The notes under the pieces: generated by a model
Told to the model about the DNA's origin: nothing
The model's input: only the letters and a program-made list of their open reading frames with translations
The model's database searches: none
Shown: one piece after another, positions 5,883 through 59,900 of the stretch
How positions within the stretch are numbered: the first letter of the stretch is position 1
Layout of the letters: each line of letters begins with the position of its first letter
NCBI GenBank assembly: GCA_963663945.1
Contig: OY760687.1
Coordinates: 3,095,387 to 3,159,386, forward strand
Direction: 5' to 3'
Source: Dehalococcoidia bacterium
GTDB taxonomy: Bacteria > Chloroflexota > Dehalococcoidia > Lucifugimonadales > UBA3495
DNA: 64,000 nt
Position numbers and translations under genes: made by a program

Positions 5883-6440
5883 ATGACTGTCACAAACTAT
5901 CAGGACCGGATGCGGGAGTTGGGCCTGGCCCTGCCCATCGACCCGGACGCGGCGTCACGCTGGCGGGCCGCGCCCCGGCTGGACACGCTGCACGACAAGG
6001 TCGGCGGCTTCCTGGGCAACCGCAAGGCCAACGCCGACCTCCTGTTGCGAAACATCGGCGAGCGGATGGCGAAAGACCTCGAACTGGGCGACATCCTCGC
6101 GGTGGACAAGTACGTCTATTCCCGGCCGGCCGCCGATGACATCATCAGCGATCTCTCCGAGCGCTGCGACTTCGTGGTCACAGCGATTGCCGATTGAGGC
6201 TCCTGCACCGCGTGCAGTGTGCACGACGCAATGACCCTGGAGAACCTCGGCATCCCCACGGTGGTGCTCTGCACCGACCCATTCCTGAACTCGGCCTTCC
6301 TCCACGCCCGCACCTTTGGCCGCCCCGACTTCCACCCGCTCGGCATTCCCCACCCCCTGGGCGGCCTGACTCCCGACCAGGTCTCGGTCCGCGCCGGCGA
6401 GCTGGAACAGGCGGTTATCGATACGCTGACAACCTACTAA
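5883..6440 (+). CDS. UGSC-family selenoprotein (in-frame UGA at 6195-6197 read as Sec)
   Basis: Track ORFs 5817..6197 and 6219..6440 share a frame. Read-through gives ...VVTAIAD-U-GSCTACSVHDAMTLENLGIPTVV.... ATG 5883 with AGAGGT RBS gives 185 aa. A hairpin follows the UGA. Confidence 0.75.
6203..6225 (+). promoter_or_regulatory. SECIS-like hairpin(s) downstream of UGA 6195
   Basis: Two alternative hairpins: ctgcac-cgc-gtgcag (6203-6217) or cgtgca-gtg-tgcacg (6211-6225). Confidence 0.5.
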
Positions 6441-36396: not shown

Positions 36397-37803
36397 TTGC
36401 CGGCGTCAAACCGCAAACCACTCACCAGGATCGCCGCCGGCCTTCCACTCGCGCTGGCCGGCGTTATTCTGGCGGCCTCTATAGCCCTGGCCTGCGCCCC
36501 GTCTGAAGACACCACGAGCAGCGAGCCGTGGGCGGTCCCGCTGGCTGCAACCGACGCCCCCTTCCCAACGCTGGAACCCGCTGCCGACCTGCCTACCGCC
36601 GCGCTTGCCGACCGCGCAACGCCTTTGCCAACCGCAGCCCTGGCGTCACCTGCCACCGCGCTTCCCGCAGCCACCTCTTTCCCGGTGGCCAACGAGGTCA
36701 GTGTCCAGACAATCACCGCAGACGAGGCCGAGGAGGCCCGCACCCGCTACCAACGCCTCCTTCGGGCCACCTGGGACACCGACTTCACGCGCACGACGAT
36801 AGCCTACGACGAGATCATGACCGGCGGGCCGCCCAAAGACGGTATCCCGTCTATCGACAACCCGCAGTTCGAGTCAATTGCTGATGCGGACCTCTGGCTC
36901 GACGACCTCGAGCCCGTGCAGGTGGTCGATCTCAACGGCGACGTTCGCGCGTATCCGGTCCAGGTGATGGTCTGGCACGAACTTGTCAACGACACCGTCG
37001 GCGGCGAACCGGTAGTCATCACCTTTTGACCACTCTGCAATACCGCCTTCGTGTACAGGCGGACGGTTGACGACACGATCCTGGATTTCGGGACCACCGG
37101 CGCCCTGCGCGACAGCAACCTGCTGATGTACGACCGCCAGACCGAGACCTGGTGGCAGGAAGTGGGCGGCGAGGGAGTGATCGGACATTTCGCCGGCCGC
37201 AAACTGGAGCAACTCTACCTGTCCATCGTGTCCTGGGCGGACTTCAAAGCGGCCCACTCTGAAGGACAGGTGCTTTCCCGCCCCGACTCCGGTCGCGCCT
37301 ACGGGAACAACCCCTACGCCGGGTACGACCGTCCGGGCAGCCAACCGTTTCTGTTCCGTGGCGAGGAAGACCCCCGCTTGCCGGCAGTCGAGCGAGTGGT
37401 GGCGGTTGAACGCGGCAACGAGGCCTGGGCGGTGTCGTTCACCACGCTGGCCGAGGAGCGGGTGGTCACTACATCTGTGGCCGGCGAGGACATCTTGGTG
37501 TTCTGGTCGCCGGGAACCGCGTCCGCGCTGGACTCCGGAACGATATCAAGGGGAAGGGATGTGGGTACCGCCGGTATATTCTCGCCGCGAGGTCCCGACG
37601 GCAACGCGCTGACCTTCGCCCCAGACGCCGCCGGGCGCATCACCGACGTCGAGACCGGGAGCCAGTGGGATATATTCGGCCGCGCGGTCAGCGGGCCACT
37701 TGAAGGCTCTGAACTGACCCCGGTGCCGGGCCGCATTGGTCAGCTCTGGTTCTCCTGGGCGGTTTACCGTCCCGATACCGTCGTGTATCCGGCCACCGGC
37801 TGA
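36397..37803 (+). CDS. DUF3179-family lipoprotein with Sec in the CPLC motif (UGA at 37027-37029)
   Basis: Track ORFs 36397..37029 and 37051..37803 share a frame. Read-through gives DGIPSIDNPQF...VNDTVGGEPVVITF-U-PLCNTAFVY...LMYDRQTETWWQ. Lipobox IALAC. TTG start 2 nt after the upstream stop. Confidence 0.7.
37043..37062 (+). promoter_or_regulatory. SECIS-like hairpin after UGA 37027
   Basis: ccgcc(t)-tcgtgtac-(a)ggcgg, starting 14 nt after the UGA. Confidence 0.45.
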
Positions 37804-37812
37804 GCCACCTGC

Positions 37813-38427
37813 ATGGCGCGGCTTTGCTCGGTCATTGTGACCCTTGCCGTGACGGTCGCCCTGTGCCTGGCGCTGTCGGGCTGCCGTACCCCGACCGACG
37901 ACCCGGGCGCCGGCAGCGCCCAGTCTGATCCAGCCAACATCGAGGCAACCGTGTCGGCCGCGTTGCGCCCCTTGGAAGAAACGCGGCCTGGGGCCGACGG
38001 GGTCGCGCTACGCCCGCCGGCGCCAATGTTCGCGGGAACCTTCATGGACGGCAACGACTATCGGCTCGAGGACACCGTCGGCACCCCGACCTTGTTGATG
38101 TTCTGGGCCCCCTGGTGACCGCATTGCCAGCGGCAGTTGCCAGCTGTCCAGGGTTTCCACGAGGAGTACCACGGCGTCGACGCCGACATATTCGGAATTG
38201 CCATCAGCGCTCCCGAGCCGGAGGTCCGCGCGCTGATGGACAAACAGGGTCTGACCTTCCCCATCGCCCACGACCCGGCAGGGCAACTCGCCACCGTGTA
38301 TGGCGTCTCCGGTGTGCCTTTCTACATCTTCATCGACAAGGCCGGCCGGGTCGCCCATACCATCCCCGGCGCTCCCACCGACGTGAACACGATCCGGGGT
38401 TGGATCGAGGACCTTAACGCGGAATAG
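37813..38427 (+). CDS. TlpA/ResA-like thioredoxin-fold lipoprotein with W-U-P-H-C active site (UGA at 38116-38118)
   Basis: Track ORFs 37813..38118 and 38137..38427 share a frame. Read-through gives TLLMFWAPW-U-PHCQRQLP.... Lipobox LALSGC. Confidence 0.75.
38128..38146 (+). promoter_or_regulatory. SECIS-like hairpin after UGA 38116
   Basis: cagc-ggc-agtt-gcc-(a)-gctg: 7 bp with one bulged A, starting 10 nt after the UGA. Confidence 0.5.
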
Positions 38428-59219: not shown

Positions 59220-59335
59220 AAATTGCAGGCTTGGCGTGCCAGCCCCTTTAGTTTATGATTTAGCCGTTATCAGGATCAAAATCAAACGAGTGGAACATCC
59301 GCGGAGCGCGTTACGCCCGTTACGCCAAAGGGGGC

Positions 59336-59797
59336 ATGATGGCTGCATTGGAAATGGCCTATCACGTGGAAACGTACAGCTCGGGAACCCACGGCAGAGC
59401 AATCTGCAACGCCCGTACGCATCACTGGGTTGCCGATGATGGCGGCGGTGACGCAGTGGGAGCCGGTGAGCTGTTCCTTTCCGGAATTACCGCCTGCGCC
59501 GTGAATATGGTGGAGCGCATCGCGCTCACCGACGACGCTCCGGTGGACTTCATGGAAGTAACCGCCGAAGCCTTCAGGGACCCGGAAGCGACCCCCGGGG
59601 ACGTGAGCCTTTACGCCGACGTGCGCATCCACTTCAAAATATGGGGCGTCGACGACGATCAGGGCAACTACCTGGTGGACACGTGGAAAAAGCGTTGACC
59701 CCTGTATGGTTCGGTCGCCGTGGCGACCCCCAGCACTTCCGTCACTGCCGAGTTCGTCGGCGAGACTCGCCAGAAGCACGCCGGCCGCGCCGCGTAG
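59336..59797 (+). CDS. OsmC/Ohr-family protein with Sec replacing the C-terminal CP cysteine (UGA at 59696-59698)
   Basis: The track ORF ends at TGA after ...VDTWKKR. Read-through adds U-PLYGSVAVATPSTSVTAEFVGETRQKHAGRAA up to TAG 59795-59797. The first conserved Cys is in LSGITACAVNMV. Confidence 0.65.
59713..59728 (+). promoter_or_regulatory. SECIS-like hairpin after UGA 59696
   Basis: ggtcgc-cgtg-gcgacc (6-7 bp), starting 15 nt after the UGA. Confidence 0.5.
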
Positions 59798-59838
59798 CTC
59801 CCGCGAAATAGTTTGCGCCGCCGAACGGCGAAGAAATA

Positions 59839-59900
59839 CGCCCCGGCCTCGCCGGCGAGGCCGGGGCGACACGCCGCAACGCTGGTATCGAGCGTTGCGG
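59839..59900 (+). terminator. Two consecutive GC-rich hairpins downstream of the OsmC-like gene
   Basis: cgccccggcctcgc/gcgaggccggggcg (59839-59868) and ccgcaacgct/agcgttgcgg (59874-59900). No U-tract. Confidence 0.5.

What the first reader, a model, noticed from the sequence alone, without database searches (positions are those of the whole stretch)
59336..59797. OsmC/Ohr-like protein whose C-terminal catalytic Cys-Pro appears to be Sec-Pro
The track ORF stops at TGA 59696-59698 right after ...YLVDTWKKR. That would remove the conserved C-terminal C-P-x segment of OsmC-family peroxidases. Read-through adds U-PLYGSVAVATPSTSVTAEFV... (32 more codons to TAG 59795). A 6-7 bp hairpin (ggtcgc-cgtg-gcgacc, 59713-59728) lies 15 nt downstream. 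The other conserved Cys (GITACAVNMV) is present.
Basis: partly seen in the sequence, partly recalled or inferred. Interest (0 to 1): 0.6.

Follow-up and report, generated by a model that had tools for sequence, protein, structure and literature searches.

The report
Selenocysteine-containing OsmC/Ohr-like peroxidase gene
The 'stop' codon that appears to cut this small antioxidant-type gene short almost certainly encodes selenocysteine, at a different active-site position from the only OsmC-type selenoprotein described so far, and public databases annotate the gene as a truncated protein.

Summary
The ORF 59336-59698 ends at TGA 59696-59698, the frame stays open for 32 more codons to TAG 59795-59797, and the hairpin lies at 59713-59728.

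The TGA very probably encodes selenocysteine (Sec).
- All 80 related genome loci, all Dehalococcoidia/SAR202/Chloroflexota MAGs, carry TGA at this codon. So do 51 metagenome loci and a gammaproteobacterial MAG.
- Full-length homologues have Cys there, in W-K-x-R-C-P-L-Y-G-S-V-A-T-A-T.
- Sequence downstream of the TGA shows the same codon-position conservation as upstream.
- In 105 distinct TGA forms the 7-bp stem is always paired and the apex is always GU. Compensatory changes occur at all three wobble-wobble pairs. In 29 Cys forms those pairs hold only 24-48% of the time and the GU is absent.

The protein has the OsmC/Ohr fold. Cys54 aligns with Ohr's peroxidatic Cys, and Sec121 aligns with the resolving Cys of the C-P motif.

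The one described OsmC-like selenoprotein (NF041052, motif UxxT) has Sec at the first Cys. This protein scores 16.7 bits against that model's cutoff of 95.

Three more in-frame-TGA genes lie in the window, and a close relative (bin87) encodes SelA, SelB and SelD.

Verdict: a real selenoprotein gene, a new variant of a known kind.

The parts
59336..59797 (+). Full selenoprotein gene: 153 codons plus the TAG stop, OsmC/Ohr-like. The start is ATG 59336 or ATG 59339.
   Evidence: Translation. Pfam OsmC scores 35.7 bits when read through. Full-length Cys homologues are 145-152 aa. The codon-position conservation pattern is the same on both sides of the TGA.
59696..59698 (+). In-frame UGA read as selenocysteine (residue 121). 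It aligns with the second, C-P, redox Cys of the family.
   Evidence: TGA in 80 of 80 genome loci, in 51 metagenome loci, and in L082, L092 and L093. Cys occupies this column in full-length homologues. It aligns with the Ohr CPYS Cys.
59708..59730 (+). SECIS-type hairpin. The 7-bp stem pairs 59713-59719 with 59722-59728. The apex is G59720 U59721. Two lower G-C pairs join 59708-59709 to 59729-59730 across a 3-nt bulge.
   Evidence: MFE fold. RNAalifold predicts the same helix. All cells are paired and three pairs show compensatory changes, with 0 of 500 shuffles reaching the observed covariation. Control: in Cys forms the wobble pairs are paired only 24-48% of the time and the apex GU is present in 3%.
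59699..59794 (+). C-terminal extension of 32 codons (PLYGSVAVATPSTSVTAEFVGETRQKHAGRAA). It supplies the last helix and strand of the OsmC fold.
   Evidence: The extension is conserved in all loci. Mean pairwise amino-acid identity is 75% downstream against 66% upstream. The AF2 model places helix 121-129 and strand 133-140 here.
59495..59497 (+). Cys54 codon (ACAVNM). It aligns with the peroxidatic Cys of Ohr.
   Evidence: Invariant in the alignment. Aligned to Ohr 'AACF/SACF'. It lies in the long central helix of the model.
59468..59470 (+). Glu45 codon. It aligns with the catalytic Glu of Ohr (P-E-Q-L-F) and sits 9 residues before Cys54.
   Evidence: HMM alignment. Nearly invariant. The role of the Glu in Ohr comes from PMC5962072.
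59396..59398 (+). Arg21 codon. This invariant Arg lies in the first loop after strand 1 and is the candidate counterpart of the Ohr catalytic Arg.
   Evidence: Invariant. Its position matches the Ohr-type Arg loop described in PMC5384416. The HMM alignment is offset by 3 residues, so this assignment is inferred.
59405..59407 (+). Cys24 codon (GRAICNAR). This third Cys is conserved in the close clade only.
   Evidence: Invariant in A1 and A3. It is replaced by N, V, S, A, M or T in the wider family and in L070.
59231..59259 (+). Promoter-like site (TTGGCG-17-TATGAT) in the divergent ispD/osmC intergenic region.
   Evidence: Consensus scan only. Function is not shown.

Best explanation
The gene 59336-59797 encodes a 153-residue OsmC/Ohr-fold selenoprotein.

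Recoding. UGA 59696-59698 is decoded as selenocysteine by the bacterial SelB/tRNA-Sec pathway. The signal is a SECIS hairpin inside the coding sequence: a 7-bp stem at 59713-59728 with an apical GU at 59720-59721, 24-25 nt after the U of the UGA. This part is shown by comparative evidence.

Catalysis. By analogy with Ohr, the protein most likely works as a thiol/selenol-dependent hydroperoxide reductase. Cys54 sits on the central helix and would be activated by Glu45 and an Arg, probably Arg21. It attacks the peroxide and becomes a sulfenic acid. Sec121, at the position of the Ohr resolving Cys, condenses with it to form an intramolecular selenenylsulfide, which an external thiol reductant then reduces. 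This part is inferred.

Without selenium, or if the UGA is read as stop, a 120-residue product is made. It lacks the last helix and strand of the fold and is presumably inactive.
For: - UGA/Cys pair. TGA is at this codon in 80 of 80 Dehalococcoidia/SAR202 genome loci. It is also there in 51 of 79 metagenome loci, in a gammaproteobacterial MAG and in two relatives from the 50%-identity representative library. Full-length homologues have Cys there within CP[LIV]Y.
- Translation of the extension. Codon-position entropy is 0.53/0.41/1.22 downstream against 0.54/0.31/1.21 upstream in 124 distinct TGA forms. The Pfam OsmC hit passes its cutoff only when the gene is read through.
- SECIS. RNAalifold finds the helix independently. 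All cells are paired. Compensatory changes occur at 18:33 (GC52/CG8/GU1), 21:30 (CG50/UA11) and 24:27 (CG48/AU8/GC5), and 0 of 500 shuffles reach the score. L082 adds an A-U pair at 18:33.
- SECIS control. In 105 distinct TGA forms all seven pairs and the apex GU are present in 100%. In 29 Cys forms the three wobble pairs hold 48%, 28% and 24% of the time and the GU is present in 3%.
- UGA is an ordinary stop elsewhere in the window, ending 23 of 50 long ORFs.
- Sec trait. Three more in-frame-TGA genes in the window match thiol-redox or selenoprotein families across the TGA. Each has a hairpin with GU in its apical loop at a similar distance. SAR202 bin87, whose orthologue L002 is 97% identical, encodes SelA, SelB and SelD (PMC5649159 Table S4).
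- Fold and active site. AF2 gives pLDDT 77.9, and the top 48 Foldseek PDB hits are all OsmC/Ohr. Cys54, Glu45 and U121 align with Ohr Cp, Glu and Cr (roles from PMC5962072 and PMC5384416).
- Context. Some Cys homologues sit next to glutaredoxin, the ferredoxin-thioredoxin reductase catalytic subunit, DsbA or rhodanese genes.
Against: - No experimental evidence of selenium incorporation exists.
- No tRNA-Sec, selA, selB or selD was found in the 64-kb window, which contains no tRNA gene at all. The machinery is inferred from a relative and from the other UGA genes.
- Four of the seven stem pairs are forced by the V-A-V-A-T codons, so only three pairs are informative. The compensatory cells are not independent events.
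- Single-sequence folding is unremarkable, and no Rfam family matches.
- The assignment of catalytic roles is by homology at about 15-20% identity to solved Ohr/OsmC proteins.
- The Arg assignment is offset in the alignment, and the model is poor for residues 24-39.
- Peroxidase activity is unknown. Many OsmC-superfamily branches are uncharacterised.
- The conserved neighbours here (ispD, ispF, a cation/H+ antiporter) say nothing about function.
Confidence: 0.88

Rival explanations
1. The recoding is the same (UGA read as Sec via the SECIS), but the catalytic roles are swapped relative to Ohr. Sec121 is the peroxide-attacking residue and forms a selenenic acid. Cys54, or Cys24, resolves it.
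For: In most redox selenoproteins Sec occupies the attacking position. In the only described OsmC-like selenoprotein, Sec is at the peroxidatic-type first Cys. In Ohr the two Cys are adjacent in the active site and form a disulfide (PMC5962072), so a swap is sterically conceivable. An extra Cys24 is conserved in this clade.
Against: Cys54 and Glu45 are invariant or nearly invariant, as in Ohr, and an Arg is invariant in the first loop. This points to a conserved Cp site at Cys54. In Ohr the Cr is deeply buried and inaccessible (PMC5384416). Families with Sec in the second position of a redox pair (CxxU: AhpD-like, SelW-like) are known (PMC1088965 Table 3). Cys24 is not conserved in the wider family or in L070.
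Confidence: 0.3
2. The TGA is a genuine stop. The gene makes a 120-residue truncated OsmC-like protein, and the downstream conservation belongs to something else, such as a decaying remnant or a separate small ORF.
For: Every public annotation examined calls a 118-120-aa product: MCY4559632.1 'hypothetical protein', 'OsmC family protein', and the JGI name 'uncharacterized OsmC-like protein'. TGA is a normal stop in this genome.
Against: A remnant would not keep the same frame, 75% amino-acid identity and a 3-periodic substitution pattern across more than 120 distinct sequences. It would not keep wobble-position complementarity only when TGA is present. The truncated product falls below the Pfam cutoff and lacks the second redox Cys and the last helix and strand of the fold. 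No start codon or separate ORF explains the extension.
Confidence: 0.03
3. The UGA is read through as a standard amino acid, either by Cys or Trp near-cognate suppression or by a reassigned code, rather than as Sec.
For: Rare database relatives show W, R or T at the column. Strain-level variants with TGC exist (P0001 in L081, and P0288).
Against: TGA terminates many ORFs in the window, so the code is not reassigned. A conserved GU-apex hairpin at a fixed distance is the SelB signature and is not needed for near-cognate read-through. Close relatives carry SelA, SelB and SelD. Three other UGA codons in the window fall on Cys-type redox motifs: UGSC, UPLC and UPHC.
Confidence: 0.05

Closest known systems
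OsmC-like selenoprotein of the Sargasso Sea/GOS surveys (Zhang et al. 2005, PMC1088965; NCBIfam NF041052 'OsmC-related (seleno)protein'; motif UxxT)
   Same: Both belong to the Pfam OsmC superfamily and are marine bacterial proteins. Both have an in-frame UGA paired with Cys in homologues and a SECIS hairpin just downstream.
   Different: In that family Sec replaces the first Cys (AGIGF-U-LLTQL), which aligns with our Cys54. Its second Cys stays Cys. Here the first Cys stays Cys and Sec replaces the second, C-P, Cys. Our protein scores 16.7 bits against NF041052 (cutoff 95), whereas the Sargasso protein scores 157.4. The reviews of 2008, 2022 and 2026 list only the UxxT form.
Ohr (organic hydroperoxide resistance protein; XfOhr 1ZB8/4XX2, PaOhr 1N2F)
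   Same: Same fold. There are two redox residues about 60-67 residues apart, and a Glu 9-10 residues before the first Cys. An Arg lies in the first loop, and the second redox residue starts a helix with a Pro after it.
   Different: Only about 15-23% identity. The Ohr model TIGR03561 scores 15.3 bits against a cutoff of 88.85. The resolving residue is Sec rather than Cys. The clade has its own invariant GRAICNARTHH...DD segment. The reductant is unknown, whereas Ohr uses lipoylated proteins.
E. coli fdhF-type bacterial SECIS (SelB-binding hairpin with an exposed apical G and U)
   Same: A hairpin inside the ORF immediately 3' of the UGA, with a small apical loop carrying GU. The G is 25 nt from the U of the UGA here (U = 1), against G23 U24 in fdhF. 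The fdhF numbering is from my own knowledge. [quoted passage not shown]
   Different: There is no bulged U in the upper stem, and the GU lies 2 nt further from the UGA. The flanking loop positions covary as a Watson-Crick pair (C..G, A..U, G..C). SelB binding was not tested.
CxxU-type redox selenoproteins (AhpD-like, SelW-like, CMD-domain proteins)
   Same: Sec occupies the second member of a redox pair rather than the first (PMC1088965 Table 3).
   Different: These have unrelated folds, and the pair is a contiguous CxxU motif. Here the two residues are 67 positions apart in sequence.

Membership tests
Bacterial SelB/SECIS-dependent selenoprotein gene | In-frame UGA aligned with Cys in homologues (criterion used in PMC1088965) | tested here: met
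   TGA in 80 of 80 genome loci and 51 metagenome loci. Cys in 29 distinct TGY forms and in all full-length homologues aligned.
Bacterial SelB/SECIS-dependent selenoprotein gene | Protein-level conservation on both sides of the UGA | tested here: met
   Entropy by codon position is 0.54/0.31/1.21 upstream and 0.53/0.41/1.22 downstream. Amino-acid identity is 66% upstream and 75% downstream.
Bacterial SelB/SECIS-dependent selenoprotein gene | Stem-loop immediately downstream of the UGA with a small apical loop containing G | tested here: met
   A 7-bp stem with apical GU is present in 100% of 105 distinct TGA forms. Three pairs covary. The feature is lost in Cys forms.
Bacterial SelB/SECIS-dependent selenoprotein gene | selA, selB, selC (tRNA-Sec) and selD present in the same genome | not testable with these tools
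   None is in the 64-kb window, which has no tRNA gene. Indirect evidence: SAR202 bin87 (L002, orthologue 97% identical) has SelA x3, SelB x1 and SelD x1 in Table S4 of PMC5649159. Three other UGA-containing redox genes lie in the window.
Bacterial SelB/SECIS-dependent selenoprotein gene | Selenium demonstrated in the protein | not testable with these tools
   Requires 75Se labelling or mass spectrometry.
Ohr/OsmC superfamily (Pfam PF02566) | Pfam gathering score | tested here: met
   35.7 bits against 27.5 when read through with Cys at 121. Only 25.1 bits when truncated.
Ohr/OsmC superfamily (Pfam PF02566) | OsmC/Ohr fold | tested here: met
   AF2 model of the 94%-identical Cys variant P0001: pLDDT 77.9, pTM 0.76. 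The top 48 Foldseek PDB hits are all OsmC/Ohr proteins, with TM about 0.45-0.6.
Ohr/OsmC superfamily (Pfam PF02566) | Pair of redox Cys about 60 residues apart (hallmark, PMC5384416) | tested here: met
   Cys54 and Sec121 are 67 residues apart. They align with Ohr Cp and Cr.
Ohr/OsmC superfamily (Pfam PF02566) | Catalytic Glu and Arg | tested here: inconclusive
   Glu45 aligns with the Ohr Glu and is nearly invariant. Arg21 is invariant in the first loop, but the HMM alignment is offset by 3 residues and the model is poor at residues 24-39.
Ohr/OsmC superfamily (Pfam PF02566) | Thiol-dependent peroxidase activity | not testable with these tools
   Requires an enzyme assay.
Ohr subfamily (TIGR03561) | Curated score cutoff | tested here: not met
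   15.3 bits against 88.85.
NF041052 OsmC-related (seleno)protein (the described OsmC-like selenoprotein) | Curated score cutoff | tested here: not met
   16.7 bits against 95. The Sargasso reference protein scores 157.4.
NF041052 OsmC-related (seleno)protein (the described OsmC-like selenoprotein) | Sec at the first Cys (UxxT motif) | tested here: not met
   Here the first Cys is Cys (ACAVN) and Sec is at the second Cys (U-P-L-Y).

The most novel reading that the evidence does not exclude
This is an unrecognised and widespread selenoprotein family. It spans SAR202/Dehalococcoidia, including sponge-associated MAGs, with outliers in other phyla. It is the first case in the Ohr/OsmC superfamily where selenocysteine sits at the buried resolving position rather than at the peroxide-attacking one. 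Catalysis would then run through a Cys-S-Se-Sec bond. Its SECIS appears to have been built on the inherently palindromic codons of the conserved V-A-x-A-T peptide: a Thr-to-Val change supplies the apical GU, and the wobble bases are tuned to pair. The host carries at least four UGA-Sec genes in 64 kb, which points to a selenoprotein-rich lineage.
Probability: 0.45. Interest if true: 0.62.

Novelty: new variant of a known kind. Interest (0 to 1): 0.52.

Why it matters
- **Annotation.** Hundreds of database entries for this protein are truncated at 118-120 residues and named 'hypothetical' or 'OsmC family protein'. They lack the second redox residue and part of the fold. Neither NCBIfam nor the selenoprotein catalogues consulted has a model for it.
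- **Enzymology.** Close natural Sec and Cys versions exist, including strain-level TGC variants. They offer a test of what selenium contributes at a resolving position: faster resolution, protection from over-oxidation, or easier reduction. It could equally show whether the two residues have swapped roles in this branch.
- **Ecology.** It adds to evidence that sponge-associated and marine SAR202 bacteria invest in selenium-dependent redox proteins. SelA and SelB are enriched in sponge symbionts (PMC5649159).
- **RNA evolution.** The Sec-versus-Cys contrast at wobble positions gives an unusually clean example of a SECIS element overlaid on a constrained coding sequence.

Tried and rejected
- **Rfam.** The scan at gathering thresholds over the whole window, and the permissive scan of 59600-59850, found nothing relevant. 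Rfam has no general model for bacterial SECIS elements, so this is uninformative.
- **Single-sequence folding.** The z-scores (-1.66 and -0.73) do not distinguish the hairpin from shuffles. I therefore did not rely on thermodynamics.
- **hhalign against the Sargasso OsmC-like selenoprotein.** This gave only a weak alignment (probability 0.3). I used it only to place the first Cys. The decisive evidence that the families differ is the pair of NCBIfam scores.
- **GC3-based scan for other read-through TGAs.** The scan is noisy in this 64% GC window (310 candidates). I kept only candidates then confirmed by Pfam or NCBIfam.
- **Gene neighbourhood.** ispF, ispD and the antiporter are syntenic in about 54 of 80 loci but give no functional link. 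I rejected neighbourhood as evidence for function in this clade.
- **Cluster look-up with 'U' in the sequence.** I could not check directly whether any record stores a full-length Sec product. None of the 119-aa cluster members read carries a selenoprotein name.
- **Cys24 as an obligatory third redox residue.** Rejected as a family feature, because it varies in the wider family and in L070.
- **Genome-wide TGA reassignment.** Rejected.

Full report
**1. The observation**

- An ORF starts at ATG 59336, with a second ATG at 59339.
- It ends ...YLVDTWKKR at TGA 59696-59698.
- The same frame stays open for 32 more codons (PLYGSVAVATPSTSVTAEFVGETRQKHAGRAA) to TAG 59795-59797.
- GGTCGC-CGTG-GCGACC lies at 59713-59728, 14 nt after the TGA.
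- The first conserved Cys (GITACAVNMV, Cys54) is present.

Taken alone the hairpin is not exceptional. It folds at -16.8 kcal/mol with z = -1.66, and 12 of 200 shuffles fold as well.

**2. Is the TGA read through?**

Pfam OsmC (PF02566) matches profile positions 1-94 of 100 at 35.7 bits (cutoff 27.5) when residue 121 is read as Cys. The truncated product matches only positions 1-67 at 25.1 bits, below the cutoff.

A search of 5.8 billion proteins gave 419 relatives. Most are exactly 118-120 residues long, ending at the same spot. About a quarter of those listed are 145-152 residues and read W-K-x-R-C-P-L-Y-G-S-V-A-T-A-T, with Cys aligned to the TGA and the extension conserved.

At the DNA level, all 80 best genome loci carry TGA at this codon. 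All are Dehalococcoidia, SAR202 or Chloroflexota MAGs, and several come from sponge metagenome projects (for example SAR202 bin87). In every one the TGA is followed by PLYGSVAVATPSTSVTAEF or a near variant. The same holds for:
- 51 of 79 metagenome loci;
- a MAG labelled Gammaproteobacteria (L082);
- two more distant relatives from the 50%-identity representative library (L092, L093).

Among the 150 best 50%-identity representatives, 48 end exactly at the site and 39 are full length. Nearly all of the full-length ones read CP[LIV]Y at the site.

In 124 distinct TGA-bearing sequences, the mean entropy at codon positions 1/2/3 is 0.54/0.31/1.21 for the 20 codons upstream. It is 0.53/0.41/1.22 for the 20 codons downstream. 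Amino-acid identity is higher downstream (75% against 66%). The extension is therefore under the same in-frame purifying selection as the body of the gene.

TGA ends 23 of 50 long ORFs in the window, so the code is not reassigned.

**3. The RNA signal**

RNAalifold recovers the hairpin independently. Number positions from the U of the UGA as 1. The stem pairs 18-24 with 27-33, and the apex is G25 U26. Two further G-C pairs (13:35 and 14:34) lie below a 3-nt bulge.

All 549 cells form standard pairs. Three pairs show compensatory changes:
- 18:33 – GC 52, CG 8, GU 1;
- 21:30 – CG 50, UA 11;
- 24:27 – CG 48, AU 8, GC 5.

No shuffle out of 500 reaches the observed covariation, and no slid register shows any. 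L082 adds an A-U pair at 18:33.

One caveat matters. The other four pairs are made of first and second codon positions of V-A-V-A-T. GTN-GCN...GCN-ACN is inherently palindromic, so those pairs are fixed by the protein sequence.

The Cys-form genes provide the control for this.

| Feature | 105 distinct TGA forms | 29 distinct TGY (Cys) forms |
|---|---|---|
| Four protein-forced pairs | 100% paired | still paired |
| Wobble pair 18:33 | 100% paired | 48% paired |
| Wobble pair 21:30 | 100% paired | 28% paired |
| Wobble pair 24:27 | 100% paired | 24% paired |
| Apical GU | 100% | 3% |
| Peptide | V-A-V-A-T | mostly V-A-T-A-T |

The single Cys form with the GU is a strain-level TGC variant of a Sec gene, L081. 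Selection on the hairpin therefore exists only where the UGA exists. The Val that distinguishes Sec forms supplies the GU.

This matches what the field requires of a bacterial SECIS: a hairpin immediately 3' of the UGA with a small apical loop containing G (PMC1088965). In E. coli fdhF the exposed bases are G23 U24 (my own knowledge). Here they lie 2 nt further from the UGA.

**4. Can the organism make selenoproteins?**

The window holds no tRNA gene, and I found no sel genes in it. Two lines of indirect evidence support the trait.

First, the 120-aa part of the window's protein before the TGA is identical to that of SAR202 bin87 from Aplysina aerophoba (L002). Over the read-through product the identity is 97%, and neighbouring genes are 90-97% identical. 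Table S4 of Slaby et al. 2017 lists SelA (3), SelB (1) and SelD (1) for bin87 (PMC5649159).

Second, the window contains three more genes with an in-frame TGA on a Cys-type redox motif.

| Gene | TGA position | Motif | Family evidence |
|---|---|---|---|
| UGSC family (seleno)protein | 6195 | AD-U-GSC | NF041046 127.8 bits (cutoff 125); PF24696 153 bits |
| DUF3179 protein | 37027 | F-U-PLC | PF11376 317 bits, profile 1-292/292 spans the TGA |
| ResA/TlpA-like thioredoxin-fold lipoprotein | 38116 | WAPW-U-PHC | AhpC-TSA/Redoxin domains span the TGA |

Each gene has a hairpin with GU in its apical loop 20-25 nt after the U of the UGA.

**5. What the protein is**

A profile of the family hits only OsmC/Ohr structures in the PDB. 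An AlphaFold model of the 94%-identical Cys variant P0001 has pLDDT 77.9 and pTM 0.76. Its 48 best Foldseek hits are all OsmC/Ohr proteins.

In the HMM alignments:
- Cys54 aligns with the Cys of Ohr 'AACF/SACF';
- Glu45 aligns with the Glu of 'PEQLF';
- residue 121 aligns with the Cys of 'CPYS'.

In Ohr these are the peroxidatic Cys (Cys61 in XfOhr, on the central helix), the catalytic Glu51 and the resolving Cys125. After peroxide reduction, Cp-SOH condenses with Cr to give a disulfide, which lipoylated proteins reduce (PMC5962072, PMC5384416).

An invariant Arg21 sits in the first loop, where Ohr has its catalytic Arg. The alignment there is offset by 3 residues and the model is poor for residues 24-39, so this assignment is inferred.

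The most economical mechanism is an Ohr-like cycle in which Sec121 resolves the Cys54 sulfenic acid into a selenenylsulfide. The alternative is that Sec is the attacking residue in this branch. I cannot exclude it and give it about 0.3.

Cys24 is conserved only in the close clade.

Neighbourhood gives weak hints for the Cys forms: glutaredoxin, the ferredoxin-thioredoxin reductase catalytic subunit, DsbA and rhodanese. The L082 Sec form sits beside a molybdenum-oxidoreductase-domain gene (Pfam Oxidored_molyb plus Mo-co_dimer) and a cytochrome c gene. In the SAR202 clade the conserved neighbours are ispF, ispD and a cation/H+ antiporter, which gives no hint.

**6. Comparison with what is known**

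An 'OsmC-like' selenoprotein has been listed since 2005 with the motif UxxT (PMC1088965, PMC2398784, PMC9312934, PMC13188914).

I recovered its sequence from the 2005 supplement (AACY01145085...AGIGF-U-LLTQL...QGCFAENL...). It scores 157.4 bits against NCBIfam NF041052, 'OsmC-related (seleno)protein'. Its Sec aligns with our Cys54, and its second Cys remains Cys.

The window's protein scores 16.7 bits against that model (cutoff 95) and 15.3 bits against the Ohr model (cutoff 88.85). It is therefore a member of neither. It belongs to a separate OsmC-superfamily branch in which Sec sits at the other redox position.

None of the catalogues I could search lists such a form. NCBIfam has no model for it. 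Public records annotate it as a truncated 'hypothetical protein' or 'OsmC family protein' (MCY4559632.1 is the window's exact product).

I cannot exclude a report in literature outside the searchable library. That is why I call it a new variant of a known kind and not a new kind.

**7. Verdict**

The recoded residue corresponds to the resolving Cys of Ohr/OsmC, not the peroxidatic one.

| Claim | Confidence |
|---|---|
| UGA 59696 encodes Sec | about 0.9 |
| Ohr-like cycle with Sec as the resolving residue | about 0.5-0.6 |

Interest is moderate (0.52). New bacterial selenoprotein families are found regularly by this same logic. Against that, the position of the Sec, the clean Sec/Cys contrast in the SECIS, the systematic mis-annotation, and four UGA-Sec genes within 64 kb of a SAR202 genome all make it worth following up.

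Noticed in passing
window 5883-6440 (+), TGA at 6195-6197: UGSC family (seleno)protein with an in-frame TGA at the U of the AD-U-GSC motif. NF041046 scores 127.8 bits (cutoff 125) and PF24696 scores 153 bits. A hairpin with an apical GUG lies about 22 nt after the U of the UGA.
   Followed up: partly
window about 36421-37803 (+), TGA at 37027-37029: DUF3179 protein split by an in-frame TGA at F-U-PLC. PF11376 scores 317 bits and covers profile positions 1-292/292 across the TGA. A hairpin places GU at 24-25 nt after the U of the UGA, the same spacing as in the OsmC gene. I did not check whether DUF3179 is a listed selenoprotein family.
   Followed up: partly
window 37813-38427 (+), TGA at 38116-38118: ResA/TlpA-like thioredoxin-fold lipoprotein with the motif WAPW-U-PHC (UxxC). 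The AhpC-TSA and Redoxin domains span the TGA. It lies directly downstream of the DUF3179 gene, so two UGA genes sit in tandem.
   Followed up: partly
L081 (P0001) and P0288: Strain-level variants are 94-100% identical to Sec forms but carry TGC (Cys) at the site. The V-A-V-A-T peptide and the hairpin are unchanged. Each is on a single short contig. They are either very recent Sec-to-Cys conversions or assembly errors.
   Followed up: partly
window 59839-59868: A 13-bp, almost pure G-C inverted repeat lies 42 nt after the TAG of the full-length gene. It scores as terminator-like only on the minus strand, where a T-rich tail follows. Its position fits a gene end at 59797 rather than 59698.
   Followed up: no
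L082 1-6920 (MAG labelled Gammaproteobacteria): The Sec form of the OsmC-like gene lies directly downstream of a molybdenum-oxidoreductase gene (Pfam Oxidored_molyb plus Mo-co_dimer, the domains found in sulfite oxidases) and a cytochrome c gene. This may hint at a link to sulfur-oxidation chemistry.
   Followed up: no
P0134, P0158, P0159, P0171, P0196, P0201, P0209, P0217, P0227, P0246, P0269: Multidomain relatives of 325-714 aa carry two to four matches to this OsmC-like profile, with the motif CP[IV]YTT. Their architecture and origin were not examined.
   Followed up: no
L070 6001-6440: One Sec-form orthologue has Asn in place of Cys24 and U-A-L-Y in place of U-P-L-Y. Neither Cys24 nor the Pro after the Sec is therefore strictly required.
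   Followed up: no
L091 2708-6074: Next to a Cys-form homologue there are genes whose Pfam matches (Fer4 and Molybdop_Fe4S4; Complex1_51K; Molybdopterin and Molydop_binding) suggest a formate-dehydrogenase or NuoF-like cluster, and the molybdopterin-related matches are spread over several short gene calls. The reason for the split was not examined.
   Followed up: no
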